DNA from: Candidatus Saccharibacteria bacterium RIFCSPHIGHO2_12_FULL_47_16b | GTDB lineage: Bacteria; Patescibacteriota; Saccharimonadia; Saccharimonadales; UBA10212 | DNA length: 64,000 bases | Assembly: GCA_001790525.1 (NCBI GenBank) | Contig: MGCU01000023.1 | Location: 5,659-69,658, forward strand | Direction: 5' to 3' | In this document: positions 1 to 50,336 of the stretch, one piece after another | Position numbering within the stretch: position 1 is the first letter of the stretch | Layout: each line of letters starts with the position of its first letter | The notes under the pieces: model-generated | The model's input: the letters and a program-made list of their open reading frames with translations, nothing else | The model's database searches: none | What the model was told of the DNA's origin: nothing | Position numbers and translations under genes: made by a program

Positions 1-121
1 TGGTCGCCTCCTTAATTGGCTCCTTACTGCGGTTATGGGCAATGACTTGATGGTTGTCCTCGGCCAGCTTTTGGGTAATTTGGGTGCCCATTCGACCAAG
101 ACCAGCTATAGCTATCTTCAC
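1..121 (-). CDS. gnd: 6-phosphogluconate dehydrogenase-like NAD-binding protein, N-terminal fragment (continues past window edge)
   Basis: rc of 1-121 translates VKIAIAGLGRMGTQITQKLAEDNHQVIAHNRSKEP (Rossmann GxGxxG, 6PGDH-type N-terminus). GTG start at 119-121 with GGAGG 5 nt upstream. Adjacent to pgl. Confidence 0.5.
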   Translation of the reverse strand, partial: MKIAIAGLGRMGTQITQKLAEDNHQVIAHNRSKEPIKEAT

Positions 122-284
122 GACACGCCTCCTAGCGTCGGCTTAAATTCTAAGTTCGAATTTCTAATTTCTAAACAATTATCAAATTCTAAGCACCAAA
201 TTCTAAATATTTGGGAATTAGAACTTAGATATTCGGATTTGTTTAGGATTTCGATATTAGATATTAGAAATTGGAGTAATGTAA

Positions 285-956
285 TCACGACGGCTCCCCT
301 CTGTAATCATTATATATGGTTAGTTTTTTGGCTGTCTTTAAGACTTGGGCTGGTTGTTTGTTTGGAGGGATGTCTTCATCGACAATTTGATCAATCAGCG
401 ACCATTTCTCTCGGCCAACCATATAGACGACTGCTTCATCCAAGTTAGTAAGCGAGCCAAGGGTCATAGTTATGCGTTGGAAATCCGCGGCCTGATAGCC
501 AACTACCAACTCTTGTGAATCAATGCCGATACTGCCGGGCATAACACCCAGCGTGTGTCCATCGGCGCCAATGCCAATGCAGGCAATTTTAAAATCGCAG
601 CTGGCAAATTCTTGCTTTAAGTACGCCGCAAAATCGGCAGTGGTTGAAGCGAAATCCTTATTTTCTAAGACCGGACGAAACTTGGCGCCGCTTAAGCTGA
701 AACCGGCATTGACTAATTTCTGCCAGTTAGAATCTGGATGTCCAATCGGCCCAAAACGCTCATCGGTTAAGCTGACAGTTAAATTCTGGACGTTTTGGCT
801 TTGGAGTCTTTTGGCTGTCTCAATTTGAATCGGCGTCAAAGAACCACCAGATAGTAGCCATAAAACCTTTGCACCGGCCGTCAATCTTTTAGCAATGGCC
901 TCATTTAAATAATCGACGACTACTTCACTACTGCCAATCTTTTGGAAACTGATCAC
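285..956 (-). CDS. pgl: 6-phosphogluconolactonase (NagB/Pgl family)
   Basis: Motifs LLSGGSLTP and GIGADGHTLG typical of 6PGL/glucosamine-6-P isomerase fold. Next to a gnd-like gene. Confidence 0.6.
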   Translation of the reverse strand: MISFQKIGSSEVVVDYLNEAIAKRLTAGAKVLWLLSGGSLTPIQIETAKRLQSQNVQNLTVSLTDERFGPIGHPDSNWQKLVNAGFSLSGAKFRPVLENKDFASTTADFAAYLKQEFASCDFKIACIGIGADGHTLGVMPGSIGIDSQELVVGYQAADFQRITMTLGSLTNLDEAVVYMVGREKWSLIDQIVDEDIPPNKQPAQVLKTAKKLTIYNDYRGEPS

Positions 957-5546: not shown

Positions 5547-5613
5547 CCCCGCTTATTTTCGTGAGTAGAATAGTCTGCAACCAGATTATGGAACTTCTAA
5601 AAAATGTGCGGGG
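5547..5613. repeat. ~70-nt hairpin mini-element, copy 1 (CCCCGC...GAGTAGAATAGTCTGCAACCAGATTATGGAACTTC...GCGGGG)
   Basis: Shares a GAGTAG(T)CTGCAA(T/C)CAGATTATGGA(G/A)CTTC core and GC-rich inverted termini with copies at 43044-43111 and 44140-44208. Confidence 0.5.
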
Positions 5614-6661: not shown

Positions 6662-6831
6662 GACATGAACAGGTTCATGCATTTACAATTTACCATTTAC
6701 CATTTATCATTAATTTCCCATTTGTCATTTACCAAACAAACTGCAACTGATATCTGTAAATTGCTAAATGATAAATCATTGAGAATTGAAAAATGTGAAT
6801 TGATAATTGCGCCGACACAAGGAGGCGCGGT
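6662..6831 (+). repeat. Dispersed intergenic module (family 2), forward orientation, upstream of the glycosyltransferase gene
   Basis: TTTACCATTTACCATTTATCATTAATTTCCCATTTGTCATTTACCAAACAAACTGCA...TGTGAATTGATAATTG...GGAGGCG is near-identical to the rc of the rpsH-rplF spacer (43013-43241). Confidence 0.7.
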
Positions 6832-8079
6832 GTGAAGATCGGGTTGGTCTGTCCCTATAATATGTTCGATAGAACTGGCGGTGTCCAACAGGTTGTCCAG
6901 CACCTCCACGATGGTCTGACCAAAAAAGGTCACATCGTCAAAATTATTACCCCAAAGCCACCGGGCTTTAAAAATGAGGCGCCAGATGACTACATTATTT
7001 TAGGCTCAACCACCAATTTTACAGCCGGTTTTGGTGCCGCCGGCAACTGGGGCTTGCCTACCGATAGTAAGGAAATGGCCCAAATTTTAAAAAAAGAAAA
7101 ATTCGACGTTATTAACTTCCATGAACCCTGGGCACCGTTACTGGCCTGGCAAATGATCAGACAAACTAAAGCGGCCTTTGTGGGCACCTTTCATGCCAAC
7201 TTATTCGATAGGCCGTCAACCTCTTCCTGGGTTAATGTGTTTACACCTTACGCTCGGAATTTGGGCAAGCGTTTGCACGTTATAACCGCTGTCTCACCGG
7301 CGCCAGCTGCCCTAATGATTCAAAAAGCTCAAACTAGTTTTGAGAAAAGAATGGTTGCCGATATTAAGTACATTCCTAACGGTGTTGACCTTAATATTTA
7401 TAAACCATTCAAAAAACGCCTGCCGCTTAACGGCCCAGACACTAAAACTGTTCTTTATGTTGGCCGGCTAGACAGGCGAAAAAATGTTGAAGCTTTAATA
7501 AGAGCCTTTGCTTTAGTTGAGGCTAAAATGCCCAAGGCCTACTTAAATATCGCTGGTGAAGGTTCCAGGCGCGGTAGTCTGGATCAACTGGCTAAAACTT
7601 TAGGCATTAAAAACATTCATTTTAGCGGTTATGTTAACGAAGACGAAAAGCGACGTTTAATGGGTAATGCTGACGTTTTTTGTAGCCCCGCGATCGTTGG
7701 TGAAAGTTTTGGCATAGTCTTGATTGAAGCCATGGCAATGGGTTGTCCGGTAGTGGCTGGTAGAAATTCCGGCTACATTCATGTTTTGACCAATACCGGT
7801 AGAGTCGGCCTAGTTGATCCTAAAGCGACCGAGGACTTTGCCGAACGTTTGATGGTTATAATAAGCGACGGCAAACTAAGTAGTACGCTTCGGGCCTGGG
7901 GCTTAGCCGAAGTTAAAAAGTTTGATTACACCAAAATAATTGATCAATATGAAAAGACCTATATGGAGGCTTATATCAAGTGGCGGATAGAGCAGCATCT
8001 TAACGGTGTTAATAGCAAGAATGCAAAGAAATTCTGGAAAACTAAGCGTCGCTTTCCTTTACGACGATTCTTTAGATAG
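6832..8079 (+). CDS. GT4-family glycosyltransferase
   Basis: GT-B/GT4 architecture. EX7E-like region GESFGIVLIEAMAMGCPVV. N-terminal GGVQQVV. Confidence 0.75.
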   Translation: MKIGLVCPYNMFDRTGGVQQVVQHLHDGLTKKGHIVKIITPKPPGFKNEAPDDYIILGSTTNFTAGFGAAGNWGLPTDSKEMAQILKKEKFDVINFHEPWAPLLAWQMIRQTKAAFVGTFHANLFDRPSTSSWVNVFTPYARNLGKRLHVITAVSPAPAALMIQKAQTSFEKRMVADIKYIPNGVDLNIYKPFKKRLPLNGPDTKTVLYVGRLDRRKNVEALIRAFALVEAKMPKAYLNIAGEGSRRGSLDQLAKTLGIKNIHFSGYVNEDEKRRLMGNADVFCSPAIVGESFGIVLIEAMAMGCPVVAGRNSGYIHVLTNTGRVGLVDPKATEDFAERLMVIISDGKLSSTLRAWGLAEVKKFDYTKIIDQYEKTYMEAYIKWRIEQHLNGVNSKNAKKFWKTKRRFPLRRFFR

Positions 8080-13591: not shown

Positions 13592-13676
13592 ATACTCCTT
13601 TTAGTCGCTCGATTAACAAAAAACAAAGAACAATAAACAAAAATGATTGTTGCTTATTGCTGATTGCTCATTGTCA

Positions 13677-14875: not shown

Positions 14876-16246
14876 TTAGGTTTCGAAAGGTTCTTCGTGC
14901 TTAGTGTCTAAATCTCGTATCTGCTGTCTAACACGGTCGAAATAGACTTCCAAGTTAGCCACCGGACCATTGCGGTGCTTCTTGACCATTAGATCCATAA
15001 TGTTTTGCCGTCCGGTATCTGGGTTATAGTACTCTTCGCGGTATAAAAAGACGACTATGTCAGCATCCTGCTCAATTGAACCCGATTCGCGCAAGTCGGC
15101 CAGTTGCGGTATTTGCGGGCTTCGGCTTTCAACGGAGCGAGAAAGCTGAGAAGCTGCCACTACCGGAACATTTAATTCTCGGGCTAGGATTTTCAAACTC
15201 CGGCTGATCTCGGAAATCTCTTGGACGCGGTTGGCCACCGTCGCAAAGCGCGATCCGCCACTCATCAGCTGTAAATAATCAACCATAATGACCGAAAGGG
15301 GGTGCTGATGATGCAACCGCCGGGCTTTAGTTCGAAGGTCCGATACTGTAATGCCAGAAGTATCATCAATGTATACAGGCGCTTCCGCTAGCTCGCCCAT
15401 AGCAGTGCTTAACTTTTCAAAATCACTATCAGTTAAACCGTCGCCGGTCCGCAGTTTCCAAGCATCGACTCCAGCTTGAGCTGCCAGCAAGCGATCAACC
15501 AACTGCTCCTTACTCATTTCCAGGCTAAAATATAGTACTGTGCCATGTTCAGCTTGGGTGGCAATGTTAAGTGCCATATTAAGCATCAAGGCGGTTTTAC
15601 CCATTGATGGTCGGGCGGCAATCACGTCAAGATCAGACCGTTGTAGGCCAGCCAGCAATTTATCGAGATCGCGCATTCCGGTTGCCAGGCCGCGCAATCG
15701 GCCTTTGTGGCGATGCAGATCATCTAACCTATCAAAACTTTCGCCTAGGATTGATTCCAACGGTGTTATGTCTTGTTTGACACTGCGTTGGGAGACTTCG
15801 AATAGACGAGCTTCGGCTTCTTCGATTAACTCCTGCAGGCTTTTGCCCTCTTGTTGACTGATATTAGCGATTGACTCCGAGGCCTCAATTAGCCGCCGTC
15901 GGATTGATTTTTCGGCCACGATTTCAGCATAGTGTTCGACGTGCGATGAGGTTGGCACAAAGTTAGTCAGTTCGGTCAAGTAACCGGCGCCACCGACATC
16001 ATCTAAATCGCCATTACTTTTAAGTTGCTCGGATAAGGTTAAGATGTCAATTGGTCGGTGTTTTTCGAAAAGTTTACGCATCGAAGCGAAAATTCGTCGG
16101 TGCTGCTCATTAAAAAAATCTTCGGCTTTTATCGAATCAGCAATTTTAATAAAAGCTTCGCTATCGATTATTAAACTACCAAGTAAGCTGGCTTCAGCGT
16201 CAGCACTTTGCGGAACGGATGTTTTTTTAGCGTCCATCAGACGCAC
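14876..16246 (-). CDS. dnaB: replicative DNA helicase DnaB
   Basis: DnaB N-domain plus RecA-like domain with Walker A (ARPSMGKTA) and GLATGMRDLD. Confidence 0.9.
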   Translation of the reverse strand: MRLMDAKKTSVPQSADAEASLLGSLIIDSEAFIKIADSIKAEDFFNEQHRRIFASMRKLFEKHRPIDILTLSEQLKSNGDLDDVGGAGYLTELTNFVPTSSHVEHYAEIVAEKSIRRRLIEASESIANISQQEGKSLQELIEEAEARLFEVSQRSVKQDITPLESILGESFDRLDDLHRHKGRLRGLATGMRDLDKLLAGLQRSDLDVIAARPSMGKTALMLNMALNIATQAEHGTVLYFSLEMSKEQLVDRLLAAQAGVDAWKLRTGDGLTDSDFEKLSTAMGELAEAPVYIDDTSGITVSDLRTKARRLHHQHPLSVIMVDYLQLMSGGSRFATVANRVQEISEISRSLKILARELNVPVVAASQLSRSVESRSPQIPQLADLRESGSIEQDADIVVFLYREEYYNPDTGRQNIMDLMVKKHRNGPVANLEVYFDRVRQQIRDLDTKHEEPFET

Positions 16247-16352
16247 CTTTCGGGCTTAATTCTCAGTTTACAATTTACAGTTTTCATTATTTTTTCATTG
16301 ATAATTGAACATTGATCATAGATCATTGTGAATTGGAGAAATTTCATTGCGA
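16247..16352 (-). repeat. Family-2 intergenic module (TTTACAATTTACAG / CATTGATAATTG / GAGAAATTTCATTGCGAC palindrome at the dnaX stop)
   Basis: Direct repeats TTACAATTTACA and CATTGA tandems. Palindrome GCAATgaaATTTC-type adjacent to the upstream stop codon. Confidence 0.55.
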
Positions 16353-23185: not shown

Positions 23186-23611
23186 TTACTCAATCTCCAC
23201 GCCCATACTTCGGGCGGTGCCGGCCACCATTTTTTTAACGGCTTCAATATCATCTGTATTCATATCATCAGCCTTAGCTTGGGCAATTTCGGTCAGCTGC
23301 GATTGGCTTAATTTTTTCTCGAGTTTGGTTTTATTTGGCTCACCAGAGCCCTTGTCTTCTTTAAGGGCTTTAAGTATCAGTTCGTCTGTTGGTGTGCCAA
23401 CCACTTGCCAAGTCATAGTTCGGTCATCATAAATCGTAATGTGGACTGTCAGATTTTGCCCCATCCGGTCCTTGGTTTGTTCGTTAAACGGATTGACAAA
23501 GTCCATCATGTTAACGCCGTATTGGCCCAAGGTTGAACCGACCGGCGGTCCAGCGTTTGCTTGTCCGCCCGGAATTTTCATTTTTAGATTAGACGCTACT
23601 TTCTTAGCCAT
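23186..23611 (-). CDS. rplK: 50S ribosomal protein L11
   Basis: L11 N-domain PPVGSTLGQYGVN. Directly upstream of rplA. Confidence 0.9.
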   Translation of the reverse strand: MAKKVASNLKMKIPGGQANAGPPVGSTLGQYGVNMMDFVNPFNEQTKDRMGQNLTVHITIYDDRTMTWQVVGTPTDELILKALKEDKGSGEPNKTKLEKKLSQSQLTEIAQAKADDMNTDDIEAVKKMVAGTARSMGVEIE

Positions 23612-23731
23612 CAGTGTCGCTCCTTTCAGTCGCTTCCAAGCTCGAAGTTCTAAACACTAGGGTTTGAAATTTAGAATTTAGAATTTGAAATTTGTTTATG
23701 ATTTCGGGTTTAGTATTCAGGGTTTTCATCT
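23612..23731 (-). repeat. Family-1 AT-rich repeat spacer upstream of rplK (TTCTAAA / TTTGAAATTTAGAATTTAGAATTTGAAATTTG)
   Basis: Tandem and inverted ATTTAGAA/TTCTAAAT motifs. Conserved AGCGACTGAAAGGAGCG leader next to the start codon. Confidence 0.55.
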
Positions 23732-24274
23732 TCACACTCGCTTTACCTGCAGGCCATCGAGCTCAACCGGCGTTTCCCGGCCGAACATATTAACTAGTAC
23801 CTTAAGTTTACCTTTCTGGGCGTCAATTTCATTGATAGCACCGTCAAAGCCTTTAAAAGGCCCGTCAATGATGTTAACCACTTCGCCAACTTGGAAATCA
23901 AACTTATGCTTAGGTTCTTCCCGGCCCATCCGCTTCATGATTTTTTCAATTTCATCTTCACCTAGAGGCGTCGGTTCAGTGCCGGTTCCAACAAAACCGG
24001 TAACGTTTGGTGTGTTGCGAACAATGTACCAAGCATCTTCGGATAGCTTCATCTCAACCAGGACATAACCTTGAAAGATGCGCTTTTCGACAACCTTTCG
24101 CTTACCGTTTTTAATCTCAATCATTTTCTCTTTTGGTACTAACACTTGGAAAATCTTATCGCCCATATCAAGCGATTCGGCCCGCTGGCGAATGCTCTCC
24201 GCCACCTTTTCTTCGTATCCAGAATAAGTGTGGATAGCATACCATTGCTTACTTGAATCGTATCGTTTATTCAC
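23732..24274 (-). CDS. nusG: transcription antiterminator NusG
   Basis: NGN domain (WYAIHTYSGYE) plus KOW domain (GPFKGFDGAI). Confidence 0.9.
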   Translation of the reverse strand: MNKRYDSSKQWYAIHTYSGYEEKVAESIRQRAESLDMGDKIFQVLVPKEKMIEIKNGKRKVVEKRIFQGYVLVEMKLSEDAWYIVRNTPNVTGFVGTGTEPTPLGEDEIEKIMKRMGREEPKHKFDFQVGEVVNIIDGPFKGFDGAINEIDAQKGKLKVLVNMFGRETPVELDGLQVKRV

Positions 24275-24368
24275 AAGACTCTCCTTTTAGCCGCAGAAAC
24301 TAGAAAATAGGAACTAGGAAGTAGTATTACTAATTCCTGATTGCTGATTTCTAATTGCTTGATCTGAA
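24275..24368 (-). repeat. Family-3 imperfect long hairpin spacer (AACTAGAAAATAGGAACTAGGAAGTAG / TACTAATTCCTGATTGCTGATTTCTAATT)
   Basis: The left half is ~70% complementary to the right half. Homologous copies at 43632-43728 and 59567-59665. Confidence 0.55.
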
Positions 24369-24716
24369 TCATTTTAGGATTACTCGTTTAAAAAATTCAT
24401 CGATGCCTTTGTCGACACCTGCCGCCAAGCCGCCAAAAATGATCGCAAAAATAAAAACCGCCAGTGTCAGTCGCCAAGTTTCTCGTCGCGATGGCCACGT
24501 CACTTGCCGGACTTCGCGCCAGGCATTGATAAAATAGCGCGGTAAAATCCAGCTTAAAACTTTTTTGAAAGGCATAAAGATAAAACCGAACAATCTAAAA
24601 AGCGGCTTTAAAAAACTTAGTCTTGACGGCTTGACAGCCTGAACCGGTTGAGCTTGCGACTCAACAATTTCCCGCGTTGGCGGTGCTTTACGAATTCTCG
24701 GCTTTCGATCAGCCAC
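24369..24716 (-). CDS. secE: preprotein translocase subunit SecE (N-terminally extended)
   Basis: C-terminal NAWREVRQVTWPSRRETWRLTLAVFIFAIIFG is the conserved SecE TM segment. Confidence 0.75.
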   Translation of the reverse strand: MADRKPRIRKAPPTREIVESQAQPVQAVKPSRLSFLKPLFRLFGFIFMPFKKVLSWILPRYFINAWREVRQVTWPSRRETWRLTLAVFIFAIIFGGLAAGVDKGIDEFFKRVILK

Positions 24717-28169: not shown

Positions 28170-28228
28170 GCTGTTCCTTGTTTAACTTTGGTAATTCCTC
28201 TGTCCCCGCTATTAAGGTGACGTACTTG

Positions 28229-37141: not shown

Positions 37142-37771
37142 TTAACGTGAGTAAAACTCAATAATTAGTTGCTCTTTAATATCTGGCTCAGCGTCATCGC
37201 GGCTTGGTTGACCGCTAAGCTTTATCTTGAAGTTCTTTCTATCAACTTTCAGCCAAGCTGGAGTGGCTGAGGGTGCTGGCGAAAGCTCATCTATATTTTT
37301 GAAGTAACTGGTTGTTTTAGCAGAATCACGGAGTACTAACTCGTCACTAATGTCTAATCTGATTGATGGTATGTCTGTCCGGCGGCCATTTAACATAAAG
37401 TGGCCGTGGCTGACTAGTTGACGGGCTGCCGGCCTGGAAACAGCCAAACCAGCTCGATAGATAACATTGTCCAGCCGTCTTTCTAAAAATTCCAGTAGTT
37501 TTATGCCGGATTCACCTTTACTACGCAATGCCTCGTTTACCAACTTCACAAACTGTTTTTCTAATAACCCATAAAGCCGTTTAACTTTTTGCTTTTCCCG
37601 CAGTTGAAGGGCATATTGGCTGGGTTTTCTGGGCCGGCCACCACCACCTGGCGTCGTACCGGGAGCGGTCGTTCTTTTGACCAAGACCTTATGGGCTTTT
37701 GGATGAAGTGCATAGCCCTCGCGGCGAGACCGTTTTACGATGGAACCTAGGTCCCTAGCCATCAGGCGCAC
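37142..37771 (-). CDS. rpsD: 30S ribosomal protein S4
   Basis: S4 family with S4 RNA-binding domain. Confidence 0.9.
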   Translation of the reverse strand: MRLMARDLGSIVKRSRREGYALHPKAHKVLVKRTTAPGTTPGGGGRPRKPSQYALQLREKQKVKRLYGLLEKQFVKLVNEALRSKGESGIKLLEFLERRLDNVIYRAGLAVSRPAARQLVSHGHFMLNGRRTDIPSIRLDISDELVLRDSAKTTSYFKNIDELSPAPSATPAWLKVDRKNFKIKLSGQPSRDDAEPDIKEQLIIEFYSR

Positions 37772-37865
37772 ATCCGGTGCTCAAAATTCAAAAACCAAAT
37801 ACCAAACATCAGAGGGTTTGAACTTTGAAATTTGAAAATTGAAGTTTGGAATGACGCAGTCATGA
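37772..37865 (-). repeat. Intergenic module between rpsK and rpsD (GAATGACGCAGTCATGACTAG palindrome plus TTTGAAATTTGAAAATTGAAGTTTGG repeats plus GAGCACCGGATGTGC SD hairpin)
   Basis: Same terminal modules as at 36028-36184, with a family-1-like AT-rich core. Confidence 0.55.
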
Positions 37866-38321
37866 CTAGTTCCTTTTAGCCTTTCTTGGTCGAGTGCCGC
37901 CGTGCGGAATGCCAGTCTTATCTCTTATGGTTTCGACGGTTAGTCTCTGATTAATCAATGTCCGGATGGCCGAATCACGGCCCAAGCCAATGCCAGTGAC
38001 GATAACATCTACTTTGGCAATACCGAATGTTTTGGCGTCAGTCAGCGCTTTTTCAGTAGCCACTTGGGCGGCATAAGCTGTTCCTTTTTTCGAACCCCTA
38101 AAGCCGCTGCTGCCGGCACTAGCTGAAGCCAAAACGTTGCCTTGCTCATCGGTTACAGACACAACTGTGTTATTAAAACTTGCCAAAATATGAACTTGAC
38201 CGCGACTAACTTGACGCTTTAGCTTTTTGCGCTTGGTTACGGTCTTTGGTTTTTCGTCAGTAATTTCTGCCGTTTCAACCGGTTTTACTTGTTCACTGCT
38301 TTGACCTTCTTTAACTACCAT
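37866..38321 (-). CDS. rpsK: 30S ribosomal protein S11 (N-terminally extended)
   Basis: S11 core HILASFNNT...; ~25-aa N-terminal extension. Confidence 0.9.
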   Translation of the reverse strand: MVVKEGQSSEQVKPVETAEITDEKPKTVTKRKKLKRQVSRGQVHILASFNNTVVSVTDEQGNVLASASAGSSGFRGSKKGTAYAAQVATEKALTDAKTFGIAKVDVIVTGIGLGRDSAIRTLINQRLTVETIRDKTGIPHGGTRPRKAKRN

Positions 38322-38441
38322 ACGCTCCTTTCAGTCGCTTTAGGGTCTAGGGTGTAGGCTATAGGGGATAGTTTGCCAAAAAGTATTTCTAGACCCTTGC
38401 CCCTTGCCCCTAGTCCCTGATGATGAATGCAATGAATCATC
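38322..38441 (-). repeat. Intergenic inverted repeat spacer (CTAGGGTCTAGGGTGTAGG ... CCCTTGCCCCTTGCCCCTAGTCCC)
   Basis: TAGGG direct repeats on the left mirrored by CCCTAG/CCCCTTGCC on the right: a long imperfect hairpin between rpsM and rpsK. Confidence 0.5.
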
Positions 38442-38828
38442 TTATGTTTTACTCGGTGCTTTCCTAGCGGTTCCACCTACTGTTATACGCTTACCGCGAC
38501 GAGTCCGGGCGTTAGTTCTGGTGCGCTGGCCACGGGTTGGTAAATTAGCAGCGTGGCGTAAGCCACGATAAGCATTGATGTCCTTCAAGCGCTTAATATT
38601 AGCGGTTACTGTTTTATGGAGCTCACCTTCAATGGTGTAATCGCTAGTGATAACATCTTGCAGTTTTGAGATTTCGCTATCTGTCAACTTTTTTACCCTA
38701 ATAGTTGGTTCAATGTTGGCTTTATCAAGGATTTGATGGCTAATCTTTGGACCAATGCCGTAGATGTAAGTTAAAGCTACTTGAACTTGTTTTTCGTCTG
38801 GAATTACCACACCGGCTAGTCGAGCCAT
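38442..38828 (-). CDS. rpsM: 30S ribosomal protein S13
   Basis: S13 family (MARLAGVVIPDEKQVQVALTYIYGIG). Confidence 0.9.
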   Translation of the reverse strand: MARLAGVVIPDEKQVQVALTYIYGIGPKISHQILDKANIEPTIRVKKLTDSEISKLQDVITSDYTIEGELHKTVTANIKRLKDINAYRGLRHAANLPTRGQRTRTNARTRRGKRITVGGTARKAPSKT

Positions 38829-38965
38829 CAGACGTTCTCTCCGGTCGCTTCAAACCCTAAGTTCGAAGTTCTAAACTCTAAAGTTTGGTAATTGGAATTT
38901 AGGATTTGGAAATTGTTTAGAAATTCGGGTTTAGAAATTAGGTATTGGAATGTCGAAGGCATGAC
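38829..38965 (-). repeat. Family-1 AT-rich repeat spacer between rpmJ and rpsM
   Basis: TTCTAAACTCTAAAGTTTGG ... ATTTGGAAATTGTTTAGAAATTCGGGTTTAGAAATTAGG, an inverted TCTAAA/TTTAGA arrangement. Confidence 0.55.
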
Positions 38966-42454: not shown

Positions 42455-43012
42455 TTACGCCGCTGTTGCCTCCTTGCCGCTCTTACCACTTTTACGGATA
42501 ATCTGTTCACCCTCGTAGCTTATTCCCTTGCCTTTGTATGGTTCAGGCTTTTTAAAGGCTCGAATCTCGGCCGCCACCTGACCCACTTTTTGCTTGTCGG
42601 CGCCGCTGACGGTAATAATATTTTGATCAACAGATAGACTTACACCCTCCGGAATTTTATAAATAACATCATGTGATAAGCCTAGGTTCATTTTAAGGTC
42701 AGTGCCTGATAATTGGCTACGGTAACCAACTCCACTTAATTCAAGTTTTATGTCATAACCTTGGCTGACGCCGGCAATCATATTTTTAAGTAGCGAACGC
42801 ATGAGACCGTGCTTGGCTCTGGTAATCGCTGTCTCATTTTGGCGATTAACTTGCAATTGATTATCCTTAACCGTTACTGTTATGTCGGCCAGCTTGGCTT
42901 GCTTAAGTTTACCTTTTAGTCCTTCAATATAAATAAAGTCTTTATCTACGATTACAGACACGCCAGGCGGTACAGCAATTGGTTGTTTACCGATACGACT
43001 CACAGAAGGCAC
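42455..43012 (-). CDS. rplF: 50S ribosomal protein L6
   Basis: Two L6 alpha/beta repeat domains. Confidence 0.9.
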   Translation of the reverse strand: MPSVSRIGKQPIAVPPGVSVIVDKDFIYIEGLKGKLKQAKLADITVTVKDNQLQVNRQNETAITRAKHGLMRSLLKNMIAGVSQGYDIKLELSGVGYRSQLSGTDLKMNLGLSHDVIYKIPEGVSLSVDQNIITVSGADKQKVGQVAAEIRAFKKPEPYKGKGISYEGEQIIRKSGKSGKEATAA

Positions 43013-43241
43013 CTCCGGTGCTCAATTATCAATTCACAATTATCCCCACACCAAAAACTTGAAGCTCCATAATCTGATTGCAGACTACTCCGCTCAGGTT
43101 TTGGTGCAGGGTAAGCAATGCTCAATGAATTATCAATTAGCAATTTGCAACTACTGGCTGCAGTTTGTTTGATAAATGACAAATGAGAAATTAATGGTAA
43201 ATGGTAAATGGTAAATGGTAAATGGAATGATGGAGTCATGA
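43013..43241 (-). repeat. Family-2 intergenic module between rpsH and rplF, carrying a nested ~70-nt hairpin mini-element
   Basis: The rc matches the 6662-6831 element module by module (AAATGGTAAATGG tandems, CATTTGTCATTTATCAAACAAACTGCA, CAATTATCAATTCACAATTATC, GCACCGGAGGTGC) with an extra insert at 43044-43111. Confidence 0.7.
43044..43111. repeat. ~70-nt hairpin mini-element, copy 2 (inverted relative to copies 1 and 3)
   Basis: CCCCACACCAAAAAC...CATAATCTGATTGCAGACTACTCCGCTCAGG...GTTTTGGTGCAGGG. The core is the rc of GAGCGGAGTAGTCTGCAATCAGATTATG. Confidence 0.55.
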
Positions 43242-43631
43242 CTAGTAGACCTCGCAAATTAATTCGCCGCCAATACCCTTTTTTCTAGCAGCCAAGCCGC
43301 TCATGATGCCTTGGGAAGTTGATAAAACTACTATACCGCGGCCAGCTTTGATGCTTGGAATCTCCGAGGCTTTAACATAATGGCGCCGGCCTGGGCGACT
43401 GACTCGTTTAAGTTCTGTTATAAGCGGCGACTGATCTAGTCCGTAAAGGAGAATTTGCAACTCTTTTCGATCATCCACTTGATTTGCCTTAACACTCGCC
43501 AAAAAGCCACTTTGTACTAAAACTTGAGCTACATCGTGCTTGATTTTTGAATGTGGCAAATTAACTTCATTTTTGCCGGTTGCCAAGGCGTTGCGAATTC
43601 GTGCTAACATATCGGCGATTGGATCAGTCAT
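43242..43631 (-). CDS. rpsH: 30S ribosomal protein S8
   Basis: S8 family. The stop lies in the GAATGATGGAGTCATGACTAG palindrome. Confidence 0.9.
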   Translation of the reverse strand: MTDPIADMLARIRNALATGKNEVNLPHSKIKHDVAQVLVQSGFLASVKANQVDDRKELQILLYGLDQSPLITELKRVSRPGRRHYVKASEIPSIKAGRGIVVLSTSQGIMSGLAARKKGIGGELICEVY

Positions 43632-43728
43632 ACGCCACTCCTTTCAGTCGCTCTAGAAACTAGGAAATAGGAAATAGGAAATAGTGATTTTACTAATTTC
43701 TGATTACTAATTTCTAATTTCATAATCC
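43632..43728 (-). repeat. Family-3 imperfect long hairpin spacer (AACTAGGAAATAGGAAATAGGAAATAG / ACTAATTTCTGATTACTAATTTCTAATTTC)
   Basis: Homologous to 24275-24368 and 59567-59665. Confidence 0.55.
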
Positions 43729-43998
43729 TTACCAGCTGCTTTTAGTTACACCCGGTATTTCGCCTTTGGCAGCATGTTCTCTAAAAGCAATCCGGCTTAA
43801 ACCAAACTGACGCATATAACCACGGGGCCGGCCAGTTTCAGCGCAGCGGTTTTTACGACGAGTCGGCGACGAATTACGGGGTAGTTTGGCTAAGCCAGCA
43901 TAATCACCAATAGCCTTGAGCTGGGCTCTTTTAGCAGAGTATTTTTCAATCAGTTGCAAACGCTTAGCATCGCGGGCCAGATTTGATTTTTGGGCCAT
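43729..43998 (-). CDS. rpsN: 30S ribosomal protein S14 (long, non-zinc form)
   Basis: S14 family. 89 aa, no C4 cluster. Confidence 0.85.
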
Positions 43999-44236
43999 CA
44001 GGCAACTCCTTCCGTCGTTGCAATTATCAATTCACAATTATCAATTTTCAACGATTTATCAAATATCAATTTACAGATTAAAGCAGAGGTTGCAGCTAGT
44101 TTGGTAAATGGTAAATGAGAAATTAATGGTAAATGCCTGCCCCGCATCAAATCCTGAGCGGAGTAGTCTGCAATCAGATTATGCAGCATCAAGATTTGGT
44201 GCCGGGGGTAAATGGTAAATGGTAAATGGAGCAATT
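43999..44236 (-). repeat. Family-2 intergenic module between rplE and rpsN, carrying nested hairpin mini-element copy 3
   Basis: CAATTATCAATTCACAATTATCAATTTTCAACG..., (AAATGGTAAATG) tandems, and the GCAATTTCATTGC palindrome at the rplE stop. Confidence 0.6.
44140..44208. repeat. ~70-nt hairpin mini-element, copy 3
   Basis: CCCCGCATCAAATCCTGAGCGGAGTAGTCTGCAATCAGATTATGCAGCATCAAGATTTGGTGCCGGGGG. The termini are an imperfect inverted repeat. Confidence 0.55.
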
Positions 44237-44833
44237 TCATTGCGACCTCTCCTTTTCAAACGGCATGCCTAATTTCTCCAGTAAGGCCTTGGATTGCTCA
44301 ACCGATGAGCTTGATATATTGAAGGTTATTTCCAGGCCGTGTGGTATAGCTGTATCCTCGTACGTTAATTCCGGAAAAACAGTTTGATCGGCTAGTCCGA
44401 TAGTATAATTGCCCTGGCTATCAAACGATTTGTTGCTTAAACCGTGGAAGTCACGCAAGCGAGGTAGGACTAAGTTTACCAAACGATCAGCAAATTCGTA
44501 CATTCTTTGACCGCGCAGGCTTACTTTTAGACCAATTACCACACCCTGTCGAAGTTTAAATGCCGCAATCGCTTTTTTAGATAAGGTCTTAACTGGCTTT
44601 TGCCCGCTGATTTTCATGAGCGTATTTTCCGCTACATCTATCAGCTTTTTATCGTCTTTAGCTTTACCTAGGCCGACGCTAACAATAACTTTTTCTAGCC
44701 TTGGTACCTGATGAAGACTTTTAAGTCCCAGTTGGCCCTTAAGTTCAGGCGCGTACTGCTCTTTAAACAACGAGCCTAGCCTAGCTTTATAGGCCGGAGG
44801 TGCTTTTTTAGTAGTCTGTGCTTGAGCAACCAT
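44237..44833 (-). CDS. rplE: 50S ribosomal protein L5
   Basis: L5 family. Confidence 0.9.
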   Translation of the reverse strand: MVAQAQTTKKAPPAYKARLGSLFKEQYAPELKGQLGLKSLHQVPRLEKVIVSVGLGKAKDDKKLIDVAENTLMKISGQKPVKTLSKKAIAAFKLRQGVVIGLKVSLRGQRMYEFADRLVNLVLPRLRDFHGLSNKSFDSQGNYTIGLADQTVFPELTYEDTAIPHGLEITFNISSSSVEQSKALLEKLGMPFEKERSQ

Positions 44834-46253: not shown

Positions 46254-46675
46254 TAGGCCACCTCTTTAGCCAGAAATTCAGTTTGGACCGGTAATTTATG
46301 GCCAGCTAGGCGCATTGCCTCACGGGCGATCTCTTCGCTAACGCCATCCATTTCAAACAAAACCGTACCGGGTTTAACCTTGGCCACGAAAAACTCTGGG
46401 TTACCCTTACCGCTGCCCATCTTGACGTCTTGTGGTTTACGAGTAACTGGCGTATGCGGAAAGATACGAATCCAAATTGAGCCGCCGCGCTTGACATAGC
46501 GAGTCATGGCTTGTCTGGCAGACTCGATTTGACTGGCGCTTATCCTATCGGAGTCCAAACTGATAAGGCCGTATCGGCCATAAGCTAGCTCATTTATCGA
46601 AGTGGCTCGGCCGCCATGAATACGCCCTTTCCTTACTTTTCGGTACTTGGAACGTGATGGCATTAGCATACGCAC
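46253..46675 (-). CDS. rplP: 50S ribosomal protein L16
   Basis: L16 family (RGGRATSINELAYGRYGL). Confidence 0.9.
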   Translation of the reverse strand: MRMLMPSRSKYRKVRKGRIHGGRATSINELAYGRYGLISLDSDRISASQIESARQAMTRYVKRGGSIWIRIFPHTPVTRKPQDVKMGSGKGNPEFFVAKVKPGTVLFEMDGVSEEIAREAMRLAGHKLPVQTEFLAKEVA

Positions 46676-46832
46676 CTCCGGTGCTCAATTACCAATTCAC
46701 AATTTACATTTTTCAATAAGTTTTCATTTATCAATTTATAAATAGAAAATAAGTCTGCAGCCAGTTTGTTAAATGACAAATGCAAAATAAATGGTAAATG
46801 GTTAATGGAAAATGGAAAATGGAATGACGCAG
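46676..46832 (-). repeat. Family-2 intergenic module between rpsC and rplP
   Basis: GCACCTCCGGTGCTCAATTACCAATTCACAATTTAC..., (AAATGG)n tandems, and the GAATGACGCAGTCACGA palindrome variant at the rpsC TGA stop. Confidence 0.6.
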
Positions 46833-47465
46833 TCACGATAACTCCCCCCGATATATCCAAACCTTCACGCCAATTAGTCCAGCGCCTGGGTAAAGGGCGC
46901 TGGCTTTAGCAAAATCAACATCAGCTCTAATAGTATGAAGCGGCACGCTACCTTGAACTTCCTTCTCGCGTCGGCTCATCTCGGTACCGCCCAGTCGGCC
47001 GGAGACTTCAATCCGAACTCCTTTAGCTCCGGCGCGCATGGATGATGCCGCTGCAGCTTTGACAGCTCGCCGAAACATAATTCTTTTTTCAAGCTGATGA
47101 GCAATATTCTCAGCCACCAATTTGGCCTGCAATTCCGGTCGTTTAATCTCTTCGATGTTGACCCTAACCGGAACTTTAAAGATCTTTTCAATCGCCTGCT
47201 TTAGTTCAGTTGCGCCGGTACCGCCTCGACCTATTACTACACCAGCTTTTGCGGTCTGTAGGGTGACAGTTACAAGATTGGGCGAGCGCTCAATGTCAAT
47301 TTTACTAACAGCCGCCCGCGAGCCAAGTTTAACTTCAATCAGCTTGCGAGCAGCTAGGTCTTGCCGCAAAAACTGGGCATAATCCTTTTTAGAGGCAAAC
47401 CATTTACTGCGCCAGTCTTTAGTGAGCGGTAAACGCATGTTGATTGGGTTAACCTTCTGCCCCAT
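46833..47465 (-). CDS. rpsC: 30S ribosomal protein S3
   Basis: KH domain plus S3 C-terminal domain. Confidence 0.9.
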   Translation of the reverse strand: MGQKVNPINMRLPLTKDWRSKWFASKKDYAQFLRQDLAARKLIEVKLGSRAAVSKIDIERSPNLVTVTLQTAKAGVVIGRGGTGATELKQAIEKIFKVPVRVNIEEIKRPELQAKLVAENIAHQLEKRIMFRRAVKAAAASSMRAGAKGVRIEVSGRLGGTEMSRREKEVQGSVPLHTIRADVDFAKASALYPGAGLIGVKVWIYRGELS

Positions 47466-47586
47466 CAGACGCTCCTCCCAGTCGCTTCAAGCTCTAAACT
47501 CGAAGCTCGAAACCCTAAAATTCGGAATTTAGAACTTAGTGTTTGGGATTTGTTTAGAAATTCGGGTTTAGAAATTAGAGTTTCCA
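47466..47586 (-). repeat. Family-1 AT-rich repeat spacer between rplV and rpsC
   Basis: CTCTAAACTCGAAGCTCGAAACCCTAAAATTCGG ... ATTTGTTTAGAAATTCGGGTTTAGAAATTAG. Conserved leader AGCGACTGGGAGGAGCG next to the ATG. Confidence 0.55.
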
Positions 47587-47967
47587 TTATTTAACTTTCT
47601 TTGTATGTTCGGACGATGGCTTTTTAACAACTCTCTTTTCTCCGTCAACTAACACTTTGATGTGGCTAGTTTTATGCTGGTATGGCAAAGCTCGGCCTCG
47701 GGCCGCTGGTCGGTATCGTTTAAGACGTAAACCAGCGCCAACTGTTATTTGGCTAATGTATAGGCTATCCGGCTTGTAGTTGTGATCGTGCACGGCATTG
47801 GCTCTAGCGCTAACAATAACTTTTTTTATGGTAACGGCCGCTCGCCGAGGCGTATGCTCTAGGATGGTAATAGCGTCATTGACAGATCGGCCACGTACCA
47901 AAGAGGCCACTAGTGCGGCCTTGCGCGGACTAACTCGAGCGCTACGATATTCGGCTTTAACTGGCAT
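47587..47967 (-). CDS. rplV: 50S ribosomal protein L22
   Basis: L22 family. Confidence 0.85.
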
Positions 47968-49559: not shown

Positions 49560-50215
49560 TTACTAGCCTCCCTAACGGTGGTTTTTTGACCAAGCCAAGC
49601 ATGGATAATTTCCACGGCTTTTTTGGATAAAACAATACTGTCTGCATTTAGCACATCAAAGACTGTCAAATAATTGGCGGCTACCGCTTGGACGTTGTCC
49701 AAATTCCTGGTAGCTCTATCAACTAACTCGTCCTTTTGTGAAACTACCAATAAGACCGAGCCTTTGGTGCCGATTTTCTGTAGCAGACTAATGGTTGGCT
49801 TAACTTGGCCGCTGGAACAATCGAAAGTTTCGATAACGCTAATTTTGTCGGAATTTGCGGCTAGGCTTAGAGCTTGACGCAACGCTTGGCGTTTAGTCTT
49901 GAGACCGATTTTACGCTGATAATTTTCGTAGCCAGTTGGACCAAAGGCCACACCGCCACCCCGCCAAATCGGGTTACGTCTGGAACCAAAACGCGCCTGT
50001 CCAGTACCCTTTTGGCGCCACGGTTTACGGCCGCCGCCGCGGACTTCGCCCCGTCTTTTAGTTTTAGCCAAGTTTGTTCTACCGCTCGATTGATAAGCCA
50101 GATAAGCATCCTGTAAAAGCTGATGGTTAATGTCGGTCTGACCAAATATAGACTTATCAAGCTTGGCTTCCGTCTCGGCTTTAGTGCCAGTTTTAGTATA
50201 GGTCGGTACCGCCAT
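49556..50215 (-). CDS. rplD: 50S ribosomal protein L4
   Basis: L4 family. Confidence 0.9.
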
Positions 50216-50336
50216 CAGGCGCTCCTTCCAGTTGCTTCAAGCTCTAAGTTCGAAGTTCTAAGCTCTAAATTTTGGTATTTAAAACTTCGAGTTTGGTATT
50301 TGTTTAGAGTTTCGAGTTTAGGAATTAAAGCTTTCT
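50216..50336 (-). repeat. Family-1 AT-rich repeat spacer between rplC and rplD
   Basis: AAGCTCTAAGTTCGAAGTTCTAAGCTCTAAATTTTGG ... TTTGTTTAGAGTTTCGAGTTTAGGAATTAAAG. Confidence 0.55.

What the first reader, a model, noticed from the sequence alone, without database searches (positions are those of the whole stretch)
6662..6831. The same ~170-nt composite element sits upstream of a glycosyltransferase gene and between rpsH and rplF
6662-6831 (plus strand, upstream of the glycosyltransferase gene at 6832) matches the reverse complement of 43013-43241 (upstream of minus-strand rplF) module by module. The shared modules are TTTACCATTTACCATTTA(T/C)CATTAATTTC(C/T)CATTTGTCATTTA(C/T)CAAACAAACTGCA, then TGCAAATTGCTAA(A/T)TGATAA(A/T)TCATTGAG(A/C)ATTG, then TGTGAATTGATAATTG, then a GGAGG-containing tail. 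The same oriented unit therefore sits in front of unrelated genes on both strands, like a mobile promoter/leader cassette or MITE rather than locally evolved low complexity.
Basis: seen in the sequence. Interest (0 to 1): 0.6.

Follow-up and report, generated by a model that had tools for sequence, protein, structure and literature searches.

The report
Translated repeat cassettes bridging operon genes
The repeated ~170-base element is real, but it is not a promoter: it is one of about 18 repeat cassettes in this Saccharibacteria genome, each sitting between two genes of an operon and carrying a small throw-away reading frame that appears to hand ribosomes from one gene to the next.

Summary
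6680-6788(+) matches 43116-43224(-) at 87% over 109 nt, and a 16-mer is identical. The extra length of the rplF copy is a nested 72-nt hairpin element.

The pair belongs to a four-copy family in the window, which also holds about 18 intercistronic cassettes built from 7-nt repeats in imperfect inverted arrays.

Each cassette carries one open sense frame (16 of 18; 4.2 expected; P about 4e-12). Its start overlaps or abuts the upstream stop (ATGA, TAATG, TAGTCATG). Its stop overlaps the downstream start (GTGA, TGATG, TAATG).

The same family sits between ftsE/ftsX, parA/parB, split transketolase genes, rpoA/rplQ and others in other Saccharibacteria, always overlapping both neighbours.

Substitutions are equal at all three codon positions, so the peptide is not selected. 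The arms are 74-98% identical between genomes whose flanking genes are saturated at third positions (34-45%).

Best reading: a mobile-like, translated relay cassette that preserves translational coupling, analogous to mycobacterial MIRUs. The promoter reading is not supported. The mobilising enzyme, the 7-nt periodicity and actual translation remain untested.

The parts
6665..6835 (+). Mini-ORF (56 aa) of the cassette in the finding, between a hydrolase-like gene (5699-6652) and the glycosyltransferase (GTG 6832). Its stop TGA 6833-6835 overlaps the GT start (GTGA).
   Evidence: the same sequence from its second ATG is in the public protein collection as P0001
6664..6679 (+). Small 5' hairpin CATGAA-CAGG-TTCATG that contains the mini-ORF start codon.
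6680..6734 (+). Arm 1: CATTTAC-type heptamer array. It has no stop codon in any sense frame.
   Evidence: TRF period 7
6756..6809 (+). Arm 2: AATTGNN-type heptamers, the imperfect inverted complement of arm 1. Stop triplets occur only in the two unused frames.
6810..6831 (+). Local tail with a small hairpin (CGCGCC...GGCGCG) that presents GGAGG in front of the GT start. It is not shared with the other copies.
43000..43239 (-). Mini-ORF (79 aa) of the rpsH>rplF copy. Its ATG lies 2 nt after the rpsH stop (TAGTCATG). Its stop TGA overlaps the likely rplF start GTG 43003 (GTGA).
   Evidence: identical to P0002
43044..43115 (-). Nested 72-nt insertion (68-nt hairpin element plus flank) inside arm 2 of the rpsH>rplF copy. 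It keeps the frame open.
43998..44240 (-). Mini-ORF (80 aa) of the rplE>rpsN copy. It has an ATGA overlap with the rplE stop and a TGATG overlap with the rpsN start.
   Evidence: identical to P0003, named a hypothetical protein of a Ca. Saccharibacteria MAG
44136..44206 (+). The same nested hairpin element in the opposite orientation, inside arm 1 of the rplE>rpsN copy. It again adds 72 nt net and stays in frame.
46663..46836 (-). Mini-ORF (57 aa) of the rpsC>rplP copy. It has a GTGA overlap with the rpsC stop. Its stop TAA lies 5-7 nt inside rplP (true start ATG 46669, MLMPSR).
   Evidence: the same junction is filled in L027, L015 and L092
36018..36182 (-). Diverged relative (CAATTTA/TAAACTG heptamers) between rpoA and rplQ. 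It shares the 5' module TCATGACTGCGTCATTCC and the 3' module GAGCACCGGAGGTG.
   Evidence: (D4-D6)
37762..37863 (-). rpsK>rpsD cassette (TTCAAA/TTTGAA heptamers). It has the same 5' module; its 3' tail is the variant GAGCACCGGATGTG. Mini-ORF of 33 aa.
38315..38440 (-). rpsM>rpsK cassette (GGGGCAA/CCCTA heptamers), mini-ORF of 41 aa.
38828..38962 (-). rpmJ>rpsM cassette (TTCTAAA flavour), mini-ORF of 44 aa.
43628..43723 (-). rpsN>rpsH cassette (AATTAG/CTATTTC flavour), mini-ORF of 31 aa, with an ATGA overlap on the rpsH start.
47465..47587 (-). rplV>rpsC cassette (TTCTAAA/TTTAGAG flavour). TAATG at the 5' end and TGATG at the 3' end.
   Evidence: (D1, D2)
50215..50340 (-). rplC>rplD cassette, the same flavour as 47465-47587.
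59556..59663 (-). rpsL>rpsG cassette (AATTAG/CTAGTTC flavour).
   Evidence: (D7)
60063..60191 (-). rpoC>rpsL cassette (AAACTCC/TTTGATT heptamers), with a GTGA overlap on the upstream stop.
24271..24372 (-). secE>nusG cassette (the same flavour as 59556-59663).
   Evidence: (D7)
23604..23729 (-). nusG>rplK cassette (TTCTAAA flavour).
16237..16347 (-). dnaX>dnaB cassette.
118..288 (-). Cassette downstream of the 6-phosphogluconolactonase-like gene (TTCTAAT flavour), mini-ORF of 56 aa.
5547..5613 (+). Free-standing copy of the nested hairpin element, in non-coding DNA beside tRNA-Gln.
   Evidence: (I14)

Best explanation
The element is a translated intercistronic 'relay' cassette.

Anatomy on the sense strand:
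1. A start codon overlaps or abuts the upstream gene's stop, often inside a 4-9 bp hairpin.
2. Arm 1 follows, made of heptanucleotide repeats free of stops in all frames.
3. A variable loop comes next.
4. Arm 2 is the imperfect inverted complement of arm 1, threaded so that one frame stays open.
5. A short local tail presents a Shine-Dalgarno sequence in a small hairpin.
6. A stop codon overlaps the downstream gene's start.

Inferred mechanism: a ribosome finishing the upstream gene re-initiates on the cassette, reads through it, and terminates on top of the next start codon. A 100-240 nt palindromic insertion can therefore sit in junctions that are normally 1-4 nt overlaps without breaking translational coupling. 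The peptide itself is irrelevant.

The cassettes behave as a mobile or copy-paste family. They are dispersed within the genome, occupy different junctions in different genomes, and keep a conserved nucleotide consensus.

Shown here: the anatomy, the open frame, the overlaps, the lack of peptide selection, the nucleotide conservation, and the patchy distribution. Inferred: actual translation, re-initiation, and the means of spread.
For: Open frame:
- 16 of 18 heptamer spacers in the window have one stop-free sense frame, while the other two frames carry 1-10 stops.
- The dinucleotide-shuffle expectation is 4.2, and the Poisson-binomial P(>=16) is 3.8e-12. On the antisense strand only 5 of 18 are open.

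Overlaps: starts lie at -4, -1, +2 or +5 from the end of the upstream stop. Stops overlap the downstream start as GTGA, ATGA, TGATG or TAATG.

Other genomes:
- In 80 other Saccharibacteria loci, 47 of 53 heptamer-periodic spacers are sense-open against 7 of 53 antisense-open.
- 39 of 53 of those spacers have a length of 1 mod 3, as two overlapping junctions predict.
- Unfilled junctions are mostly -1, +1, +2 or -4 nt.
- Family copies elsewhere sit between holin/secG, rpoA/rplQ, ftsE/ftsX, rpsK/rpsD, parA/parB, tktN/tktC and rpsC/rplP. The called mini-ORF overlaps or lies within 2 nt of both neighbours, with overlaps of 1-29 nt.
- L081 has ATGA overlaps at both ends.

Frame preservation:
- Both nested insertions add exactly 72 nt and stay open.
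- L081 has 1 CATTTAC unit against 4 in the window copy, a difference of 21 nt.

No peptide selection: substitutions are 18.4%, 18.0% and 18.7% at codon positions 1, 2 and 3.

Nucleotide conservation: the arms are 74-98% identical between genomes whose flanking genes are 34-45% identical at third positions. Copies at the same junction are no closer than copies at different junctions.

Distribution: cassette-rich genomes are scattered on a ribosomal-protein tree.

Against: - There is no expression or ribosome-profiling data, so translation is inferred only from sequence.
- The downstream genes have their own Shine-Dalgarno sequence, so coupling may not be required.
- In the finding's own copy the first ATG is 12 nt after the upstream stop.
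- Two of 18 spacers lack a complete bridging frame: 13592-13676, and 30884-31034, which stops 13 nt short.
- No target-site duplication, sharp termini or transposase were found.
- The strong cross-genome conservation of CATTTAC arrays suggests a sequence-specific partner that the relay idea alone does not explain.
- The 7-nt periodicity is unexplained.
- The predicted hairpin is weak: RNAalifold -7.4 kcal/mol with 2 compensatory pairs, and z-scores mostly -0.5 to -3.
Confidence: 0.6

Rival explanations
1. Mobile promoter or 5' leader cassette: the element supplies transcription start signals or a regulatory leader to whatever gene lies downstream.
For: A sigma-70-like pair, TTGAGA-17-GATAAT, lies in arm 2 of the GT copy and of the rplE>rpsN copy. 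The tail carries the Shine-Dalgarno sequence of the downstream gene.
Against: Most copies are internal to operons whose junctions are 1-4 nt overlaps in relatives. The hexamer pair is split by 72 nt in the rplF copy. Promoter-like counts are not above shuffles at 42800-44400: 3 found against 3.5 expected. No Rfam leader matches. This reading does not explain the open frame or the start/stop overlaps.
Confidence: 0.08
2. Structured RNA (or single-stranded DNA) hairpin acting in mRNA processing, stability or RNase III cleavage, like REP or Correia elements. On this reading the open frame is a side effect.
For: The two arms are arranged as inverted copies and the loop varies or is deleted between copies. 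Fold z-scores are mostly negative. The arms are conserved at the nucleotide level.
Against: The arms pair at only about 5 of 7 positions. The consensus energy is -7.4 kcal/mol with 2 compensatory and several broken pairs. Several cassettes fold better as antisense than as sense. The open-frame statistics and the overlaps are not expected for a pure RNA structure.
Confidence: 0.12
3. Host-beneficial regulatory spacers: heptamer arrays bind a conserved protein, on RNA or DNA, to tune relative translation or stoichiometry of neighbouring genes. The cassettes spread by recombination rather than transposition.
For: Arm 1 is 76-98% identical across genomes in which neutral sites are saturated. The number of arm-1 units is 4 in nearly all copies. 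The cassettes sit between gene pairs that need matched output: ftsE/ftsX, parA/parB, tktN/tktC and ribosomal proteins. Heptamer arrays upstream of start codons have been proposed as regulator sites in Beggiatoaceae (PMC4679880).
Against: Most Saccharibacteria genomes lack them at the same junctions. Many unrelated heptamer sequences occur in one genome. No candidate binding protein was identified.
Confidence: 0.13
4. Genuine small-protein genes that encode functional 30-85 aa peptides.
For: Gene callers predict them, and 38 related 'hypothetical proteins' exist in public collections. Motifs such as HLPFTIYHLPLISH recur.
Against: Substitutions are equal at the three codon positions. The peptide repeats simply mirror the DNA heptamers. 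Two unrelated 24-codon insertions are tolerated. No Pfam family matches. Other flavours encode unrelated peptides.
Confidence: 0.04

Closest known systems
MIRU (mycobacterial interspersed repetitive units; Supply et al. 1997, as summarised in PMC3184786 and PMC12548453)
   Same: Both are short repeats inside polycistronic operons. Both contain an ORF oriented like the neighbours, with ends that overlap the adjacent stop and start codons. Both show filled and empty sites between relatives, have imperfect inverted repeats, and are thought to insert with minimal effect on expression through translational coupling.
   Different: The phylum differs (Saccharibacteria/CPR against Mycobacterium), and these cassettes are AT-rich. 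The body is built from 7-nt repeats in two inverted arrays. Each cassette is a single unit rather than a tandem array of whole units. Many sequence flavours share interchangeable end modules. The cassettes densely colonise essential ribosomal-protein operons. No tetranucleotide direct repeats were seen.
MITEs such as Correia/nemis, ERIC and RUP
   Same: They are small, multi-copy, inverted-repeat, non-coding-size elements, co-transcribed with genes. Some carry ORFs or fuse to genes (PMC3184786).
   Different: No clear terminal inverted repeats with sharp ends, no target-site duplication and no partner transposase were found. Orientation is strictly sense. The fold is weak.
Rickettsia palindromic elements (Ogata et al. 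2000; from my own knowledge and cited in PMC3184786)
   Same: Both are palindromic selfish repeats that are tolerated because they stay in frame and are translated.
   Different: RPEs insert inside protein-coding genes and become part of the host protein. Here most cassettes are separate mini-ORFs between genes, with fusion seen only at rpsQ/rplN.
Heptanucleotide repeats: cyanobacterial STRR and TAACTGA repeats of Beggiatoaceae (PMC4679880)
   Same: Both are 7-nt tandem repeats concentrated in intergenic regions, including ribosomal-protein operons and positions just upstream of start codons.
   Different: TAACTGA carries stop codons in two frames, so an array of three or more units closes all frames and cannot be read through. 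It is a single sequence in direct arrays. Here many different heptamers occur, arranged as inverted arms with an open frame.

Membership tests
MIRU-like translationally coupled intercistronic repeat | Located between co-directional genes of an operon, in the sense orientation | tested here: met
   All window copies and L081, L027 and L086-L093 meet this
MIRU-like translationally coupled intercistronic repeat | Internal ORF whose start and stop overlap the stop and start of the flanking genes | tested here: met
   47 of 53 in other genomes
MIRU-like translationally coupled intercistronic repeat | Filled versus empty sites between related genomes | tested here: met
   Junction gap matrix: medians of -1 to +2 nt at most r-protein junctions (about 10-25 nt at several, including 18 nt at rpsH-rplF), against 80-300 nt where filled, in a patchy pattern
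MIRU (the mycobacterial family itself) | Sequence homology to MIRU classes, occurrence in Mycobacterium, and tandem arrays of whole units (VNTR) | tested here: not met
   The organism is Ca. Saccharibacteria. The cassettes are single units with no tandem duplication of whole units. Homology to MIRU sequences was not computed.
MITE | Terminal inverted repeats | tested here: inconclusive
   The whole body is an imperfect palindrome: the family model gives reverse-strand self-hits at E 1e-9 to 1e-5, and see I2. The ends are not sharply defined.
MITE | Target-site duplication | tested here: inconclusive
   No consistent direct repeat flanks the copies. ATG/TGA recur at both ends, but these are also functional codons.
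MITE | Related autonomous element or transposase in the genome | not testable with these tools
   None was found in the 64-kb window. The whole genome was not available.
REP / Correia-type RNA hairpin | Stable conserved stem-loop supported by compensatory changes | tested here: not met
   Family A: -7.4 kcal/mol, with 2 of 29 pairs compensatory and several broken. The feature is met only by the nested 68-nt element: -20 kcal/mol, 5 compensatory pairs.
Known cis-regulatory RNA (ribosomal-protein leaders and others) | Match to an Rfam covariance model | tested here: not met
   No hit at E<=1 in 42950-44300, and no gathering-level hit on any cassette.
Promoter cassette | Conserved -35/-10 hexamers in all copies, in excess over chance | tested here: inconclusive
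   TTGAGA-17-GATAAT is present in two copies and split in the rplF copy. Counts were 5 against 1.7 expected in one region and 3 against 3.5 in the other.
Heptanucleotide tandem repeats (STRR / TAACTGA type) | Tandem arrays with period 7 in intergenic DNA | tested here: met
   47 of 58 TRF rows in the window have period 7 or 14; the arrays listed lie almost entirely in the intergenic spacers.
Protein-coding gene under purifying selection | Excess of third-position (synonymous) change | tested here: not met
   18.4%, 18.0% and 18.7% substitutions at codon positions 1, 2 and 3 over 11 copies.

The most novel reading that the evidence does not exclude
Heptamer cassettes are a distinct, active class of mobile element in CPR bacteria. 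Their survival depends on being translated. Their 7-nt unit, which shifts the frame by +1 per slip, makes each operon junction a slippage-controlled switch or tuner of downstream translation, recognised by an as yet unknown sequence-specific factor that is conserved across Saccharibacteria.
Probability: 0.12. Interest if true: 0.85.

Novelty: new variant of a known kind. Interest (0 to 1): 0.66.

Why it matters
- **Operon structure.** Highly streamlined CPR genomes tolerate, and repeatedly acquire, 100-240 nt repeat insertions inside their most essential operons. They appear to do so by keeping the ribosome hand-over intact.
- **Annotation.** A class of 'hypothetical proteins' in Saccharibacteria MAGs would be explained.
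- **Translation biology.** The cassettes offer a natural test-bed for termination-reinitiation in organisms with unusual ribosomes.
- **Practical uses.** Candidate strain-typing loci, as MIRU-VNTR became for mycobacteria, and a natural design for inserting sequence into operons without polar effects.
- **An older puzzle.** The unexplained heptanucleotide repeats of cyanobacteria and Beggiatoaceae gain a third, translated variant.

Tried and rejected
- **Rfam.** A gathering-threshold search of the whole window and an E<=1 search of 42950-44300 found nothing on any cassette.
- **Exact protein look-up.** The L6 look-up for encoding contigs found nothing.
- **Promoter and terminator scan.** It was inconclusive for promoters and found no terminators in the cassettes.
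- **Covariation for a long hairpin in family A.** It was too weak to support an RNA-structure function.
- **Viral contigs.** The family core had no match. The nested-element core had one 22-mer match inside a gene with no flank similarity, which I judged to be chance.
- **Target-site duplications.** I looked by eye at 17 junctions and found none convincing.
- **Transposase or recombinase genes.** None turned up in the window by Pfam.
- **Coiled-coil idea.** A heptanucleotide array encodes a 7-aa repeat, but I rejected a coiled-coil reading because the repeat contains proline and shows no codon-level selection.
- **Phase variation by unit number.** The copies compared show 4 units (or 1, a 21-nt difference), so there is no sign of out-of-frame variants.
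- **Literature.** The search found no description of such elements in Saccharibacteria.

Full report
**1. Checking the observation**

- The repeat finder pairs 6680-6788 with 43116-43224 as inverted copies: 109 nt, 87% complementary (I1).
- The long degenerate module patterns each match only these two sites, with none in 100 shuffles.
- TGTGAATTGATAATTG is exact at 6794-6809(+), 43023-43038(-) and also 44021-44036(-).
- Pfam confirms the neighbours: a GT4 glycosyltransferase at 6832-8079, S8 at 43242-43631 and L6 at 42455-43012.

Two corrections are needed.
- The 'GGAGG tail' is not homologous between the copies. They share only the Shine-Dalgarno core.
- The extra length of the rplF copy is a discrete 72-nt insertion at 43044-43115.

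**2. The pair belongs to a much larger set**

Alignment shows four clear copies of this family in the window: hyd>GT 6665-6835, rpsH>rplF 43000-43239, rplE>rpsN 43998-44240 and rpsC>rplP 46663-46836. A diverged relative lies between rpoA and rplQ at 36018-36182.

Tandem Repeats Finder lists 58 arrays in the window, and 47 of them have period 7 or 14. The arrays lie almost entirely in the intergenic spacers.

Printing every intergenic spacer on the transcribed strand shows the same layout again and again, with different heptamers: CATTTAC, TTCTAAA, AATTAGN, TTCAAAN, GGGGCAA and AAACTCC. The layout is a short 5' module, an array of heptamers, a central stretch, an array of roughly complementary heptamers, and a tail containing the Shine-Dalgarno sequence.

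The end modules are interchangeable between flavours. The 5' module TCATGACTGCGTCATTCC (with variants) occurs in four cassettes. The 3' module GAGCACCGGAGGTG occurs in three, with GAGCACCGGATGTG as a variant in rpsK>rpsD (D4-D6, 39). In that sense 'composite' is an apt word.

**3. The organism**

The L5 protein finds only Candidatus Saccharibacteria/Saccharimonadales genomes, at 54-66% identity. One of the window's own cassette ORFs is in NCBI as a hypothetical protein of 'Candidatus Saccharibacteria bacterium RIFCSPHIGHO2_12_FULL_47...'.

**4. The key property: one open sense frame per cassette**

Three-frame translation of the family copies showed that one sense frame is open from end to end in each copy. 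It is the same homologous frame in all of them.

Counting stops per frame gives the following for the window.
- 16 of 18 heptamer spacers have exactly one stop-free sense frame.
- The other two frames hold 1-10 stops.
- Dinucleotide shuffles predict 4.2 open spacers.
- The Poisson-binomial probability of 16 or more is 3.8e-12.
- On the antisense strand only 5 of 18 are open.
- Ordinary spacers (leaders, terminator regions) mostly have stops in all frames.

The open frame begins with ATG or GTG at -4, -1, +2 or +5 from the end of the upstream stop codon (ATGA, GTGA, TAATG, TAGTCATG). It ends with a stop that overlaps the downstream start (GTGA, ATGA, TGATG, TAATG) or lies a few bases inside it.

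All 18 mini-ORFs (31-80 aa) were verified by translation.

In the finding's own copy the ORF is 6665-6835. Its TGA (6833-6835) overlaps the GT start GTG (6832-6834). Its first ATG is 12 nt after the upstream stop, so its 5' link is looser than in the others.

**5. The same rule holds in other genomes**

I located 26 ribosomal-operon genes in 80 Saccharibacteria loci by tblastn.
- Junction gaps have medians of -1 to +2 nt at most of the 25 junctions. The commonest values over all short gaps are -1, +1, +2 and -4.
- The median is 18 nt at rpsH-rplF itself.
- A subset of genomes has gaps of 80-300 nt, in a patchwork of junctions. Gaps of at least 45 nt occur at 13 of 25 junctions in the window, 16 of 25 in L004 and 13 of 25 in L052.

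Among spacers with strong 7-nt periodicity:
- 47 of 53 have an open sense frame, against 7 of 53 on the antisense strand.
- 39 of 53 have a length of 1 mod 3, which is what two overlapping junctions in series require.

These genomes use quite different heptamers. For example, L004 has three near-identical copies of a GAGACAA/TCATGAC cassette with ATGA at the 5' end and TAATG at the 3' end.

On a rough ribosomal-protein NJ tree the cassette-rich genomes are scattered, with one cluster of L052, L002 and L004.

**6. Dispersal of the finding's own family**

A metagenome scan with the family core found one contig, L081.
- 191 nt are 95% identical to the rpsH>rplF copy, including the nested insertion.
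- The copy lies between an FtsA/PilM-like gene and a Baseplate_J-like gene, next to alaS and ruvX.
- Nothing else in that locus matches the window.
- There too the mini-ORF (2896-3114) has ATGA overlaps at both ends.
- It has one CATTTAC unit where the window copy has four, a difference of 21 nt, so the frame is kept.

A profile of the conceptual peptides found 38 'hypothetical proteins' of 45-97 aa, none with a Pfam domain.

Their contexts, from eight look-ups beyond the window's own, are holin/secG, rpoA/rplQ, ftsE/ftsX, rpsK/rpsD, parA/parB, the two halves of a split transketolase (in two genomes) and rpsC/rplP. In each case the called ORF overlaps, or lies within 2 nt of, both neighbours, with overlaps of 1 to 29 nt.

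An nhmmer model of the family recovers all of these in sense orientation. It finds one more copy, in L089 between rpmJ and rpsM. It also hits the reverse strand of the same sites at E 1e-9 to 1e-5, which shows the imperfect palindromic build.

**7. What is, and is not, under selection**

In an 11-copy nucleotide alignment, departures from the column majority are 18.4%, 18.0% and 18.7% at codon positions 1, 2 and 3. There is therefore no sign of selection on the peptide.

The nucleotide sequence of the arms, by contrast, is strikingly conserved.
- Arm 1 is 76-98% identical and arm 2 is 70-89% identical across all pairs compared.
- The flanking rpsC, rplP, rpoA, rplQ, rpsK and rpsD genes are only 34-45% identical at third codon positions, which is saturation.
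- Copies at the same junction are no more alike than copies at different junctions.

The central loop varies and is deleted in three copies.

This is the pattern of a family held near a consensus. Either continued copying keeps it there, or a sequence-specific partner does.

**8. Structure**

The arms pair at only about five of seven positions per unit.
- RNAalifold gives a 29-pair consensus at -7.4 kcal/mol, with two compensatory pairs and several broken ones.
- Single-sequence z-scores are mostly between -0.5 and -3 (range +0.4 to -4.4).
- Several cassettes fold better as antisense than as sense.

The reading-frame constraint explains part of this. Arm 1 units such as CATTTAC contain no stop in any frame. 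Their perfect complement, GTAAATG, contains TAA, so arm 2 has to deviate to keep one frame open.

Small local hairpins are more consistent.
- In 12 of 15 cassettes the mini-ORF start codon is at least partly paired in a local stem of 4-9 bp (for example tcATGACtgcGTCAT).
- Most tails form a small hairpin around the Shine-Dalgarno sequence (GCACC-GGA-GGTGC, GCAAC...GTTGC).

These are weak structures, and I treat them as supportive only.

**9. Mechanism**

The best-supported model is a translational relay.
1. The ribosome terminating on the upstream gene re-initiates at the abutting cassette start.
2. It translates the cassette.
3. It terminates on top of the downstream start codon, just after a Shine-Dalgarno sequence, and re-initiates.

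This lets a long palindromic insertion sit in junctions that are normally overlapping stop/start pairs without polar effects.

[quoted passage not shown] They also show filled and empty sites, imperfect inverted repeats, and ORFs overlapping adjacent genes (PMC3184786).

What is shown here is the anatomy, the statistics and the comparative pattern. Translation itself, re-initiation and the way the cassettes spread are inferences.

No target-site duplication or transposase was found.

**10. Rivals**

- **Promoter or leader cassette.** Poorly supported.
- **Pure RNA-structure element.** It does not account for the frame statistics, and the fold is weak.
- **True small-protein genes.** Contradicted by the codon-position test and by tolerance of two unrelated 24-codon insertions.
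- **Host-beneficial regulatory spacer bound by a specific factor.** It cannot be excluded. It would explain the conserved arms, but most related genomes lack cassettes at the same junctions.

**11. Comparison with known systems, and novelty**

Functionally the cassettes work like MIRUs. They are not members of that family.
- The phylum and base composition differ.
- Each cassette is a single unit, not a tandem array of whole units.
- The body is built from heptanucleotide repeats in inverted arrays.

Like Rickettsia palindromic elements, they survive by staying in frame. They share the 7-nt period with cyanobacterial STRR repeats and with the TAACTGA repeats of Beggiatoaceae (PMC4679880). TAACTGA, however, carries stops and cannot be read through.

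I found no description of such elements in Saccharibacteria. I rate this a new variant of a known kind.

**12. Open points**

- Why the unit is 7 nt.
- What recognises or copies the arms.
- Whether the hairpin matters.
- Whether the cassettes change expression ratios.

Noticed in passing
window 5547-5613 (+), 43044-43115 (-), about 44136-44206 (+); L081 about 2955-3025: A second, unrelated small element: a 67-68 nt hairpin (CCCYGC...conserved core GAGTAGTCTGCAAYCAGATTATGG...GYGGGG). The RNAalifold consensus is -20 kcal/mol, and 5 of 23 pairs show compensatory double changes. It occurs in both orientations. It is nested inside two heptamer cassettes, where it adds exactly 72 nt and stays in frame, and it also occurs once in non-coding DNA beside tRNA-Gln. 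No Rfam match.
   Followed up: partly
L028 (rplD-rplW, rplW-rplB, rpsE-rplO), L013 (rplV-rpsC, rpsC-rplP, rpmC-rpsQ), L009 rplC-rplD, L073 rplW-rplB: Other Saccharibacteria carry a different, non-heptamer cassette family of about 103-116 nt at ribosomal-protein junctions (AGGGAAAAGAGCAGCCAGA...CTGCGCGATGAGAAAAACC...GGTTTGTCTCAT...AAGGAGGC). In the clean single-cassette gaps (L028, L009, L073, L013 rpmC-rpsQ) one sense frame is open, usually with TAATG at both ends. Bridging mini-ORF cassettes therefore seem to be a general feature of the phylum, not tied to heptamers.
   Followed up: partly
window 45519-45790 (rpsQ 45574-46053, rplN 45150-45638 as longest ORFs): The S17 reading frame runs on for about 70 extra codons through a GAGTCCA/CTGGACA heptamer palindrome (45695-45725). 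L14 has an in-frame open stretch upstream of its MIQ start that contains AGTAGTG repeats (45539-45571). Here the cassette appears fused to its neighbours rather than being a separate ORF.
   Followed up: partly
window 28137-29753: There are three to four copies of a 40-60 nt repeat (on the minus strand CTACGCTGCACCACAGATTAGAGCA...GTTAGAAC). They lie in the spacers in front of three consecutive ORFs (28229-28501, 28628-29260, 29676-30017) that have no Pfam match.
   Followed up: no
window 51266-52660: rpsJ (52268-52660, with a 34-residue N-terminal extension) is separated from rplC by a UPF0047 gene and an opposite-strand PCC-domain gene. The spacer at 52130-52260 carries period-9 rather than period-7 repeats.
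   Followed up: no
window 19756-19886 (-): Rfam L10_leader match (46.5 bits against a gathering score of 44) upstream of rplJ. It is the only known cis-regulatory RNA found in the window.
   Followed up: no
window 36028-36184, 23612-23731, 60122-60187, 16247-16352: Several cassettes fold much better as the antisense strand than as the sense strand (for example -45.4 against -22.8 kcal/mol). Sense-strand C·A mismatches become G·U pairs on the other strand. This is probably a by-product of keeping the sense frame free of stops, but an antisense or DNA-level role was not excluded.
   Followed up: partly
window 13592-13676 and 30884-31034: These are the two heptamer-periodic spacers that break the rule. 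The first has no complete bridging frame. The second has an ORF that stops 13 nt before the downstream start. They may be decaying cassettes.
   Followed up: no
L073 rplB-rpsS and rplV-rpsC, L009 rplE-rpsN, L013 rplE-rpsN: Some genomes have longer (about 200-300 nt), non-repetitive ORFs of ordinary composition wedged into ribosomal-protein junctions. Most start at or within a few nt of the upstream stop (TAATG or TAACATG) and several end in a stop overlapping the next start. Their nature is unknown.
   Followed up: no
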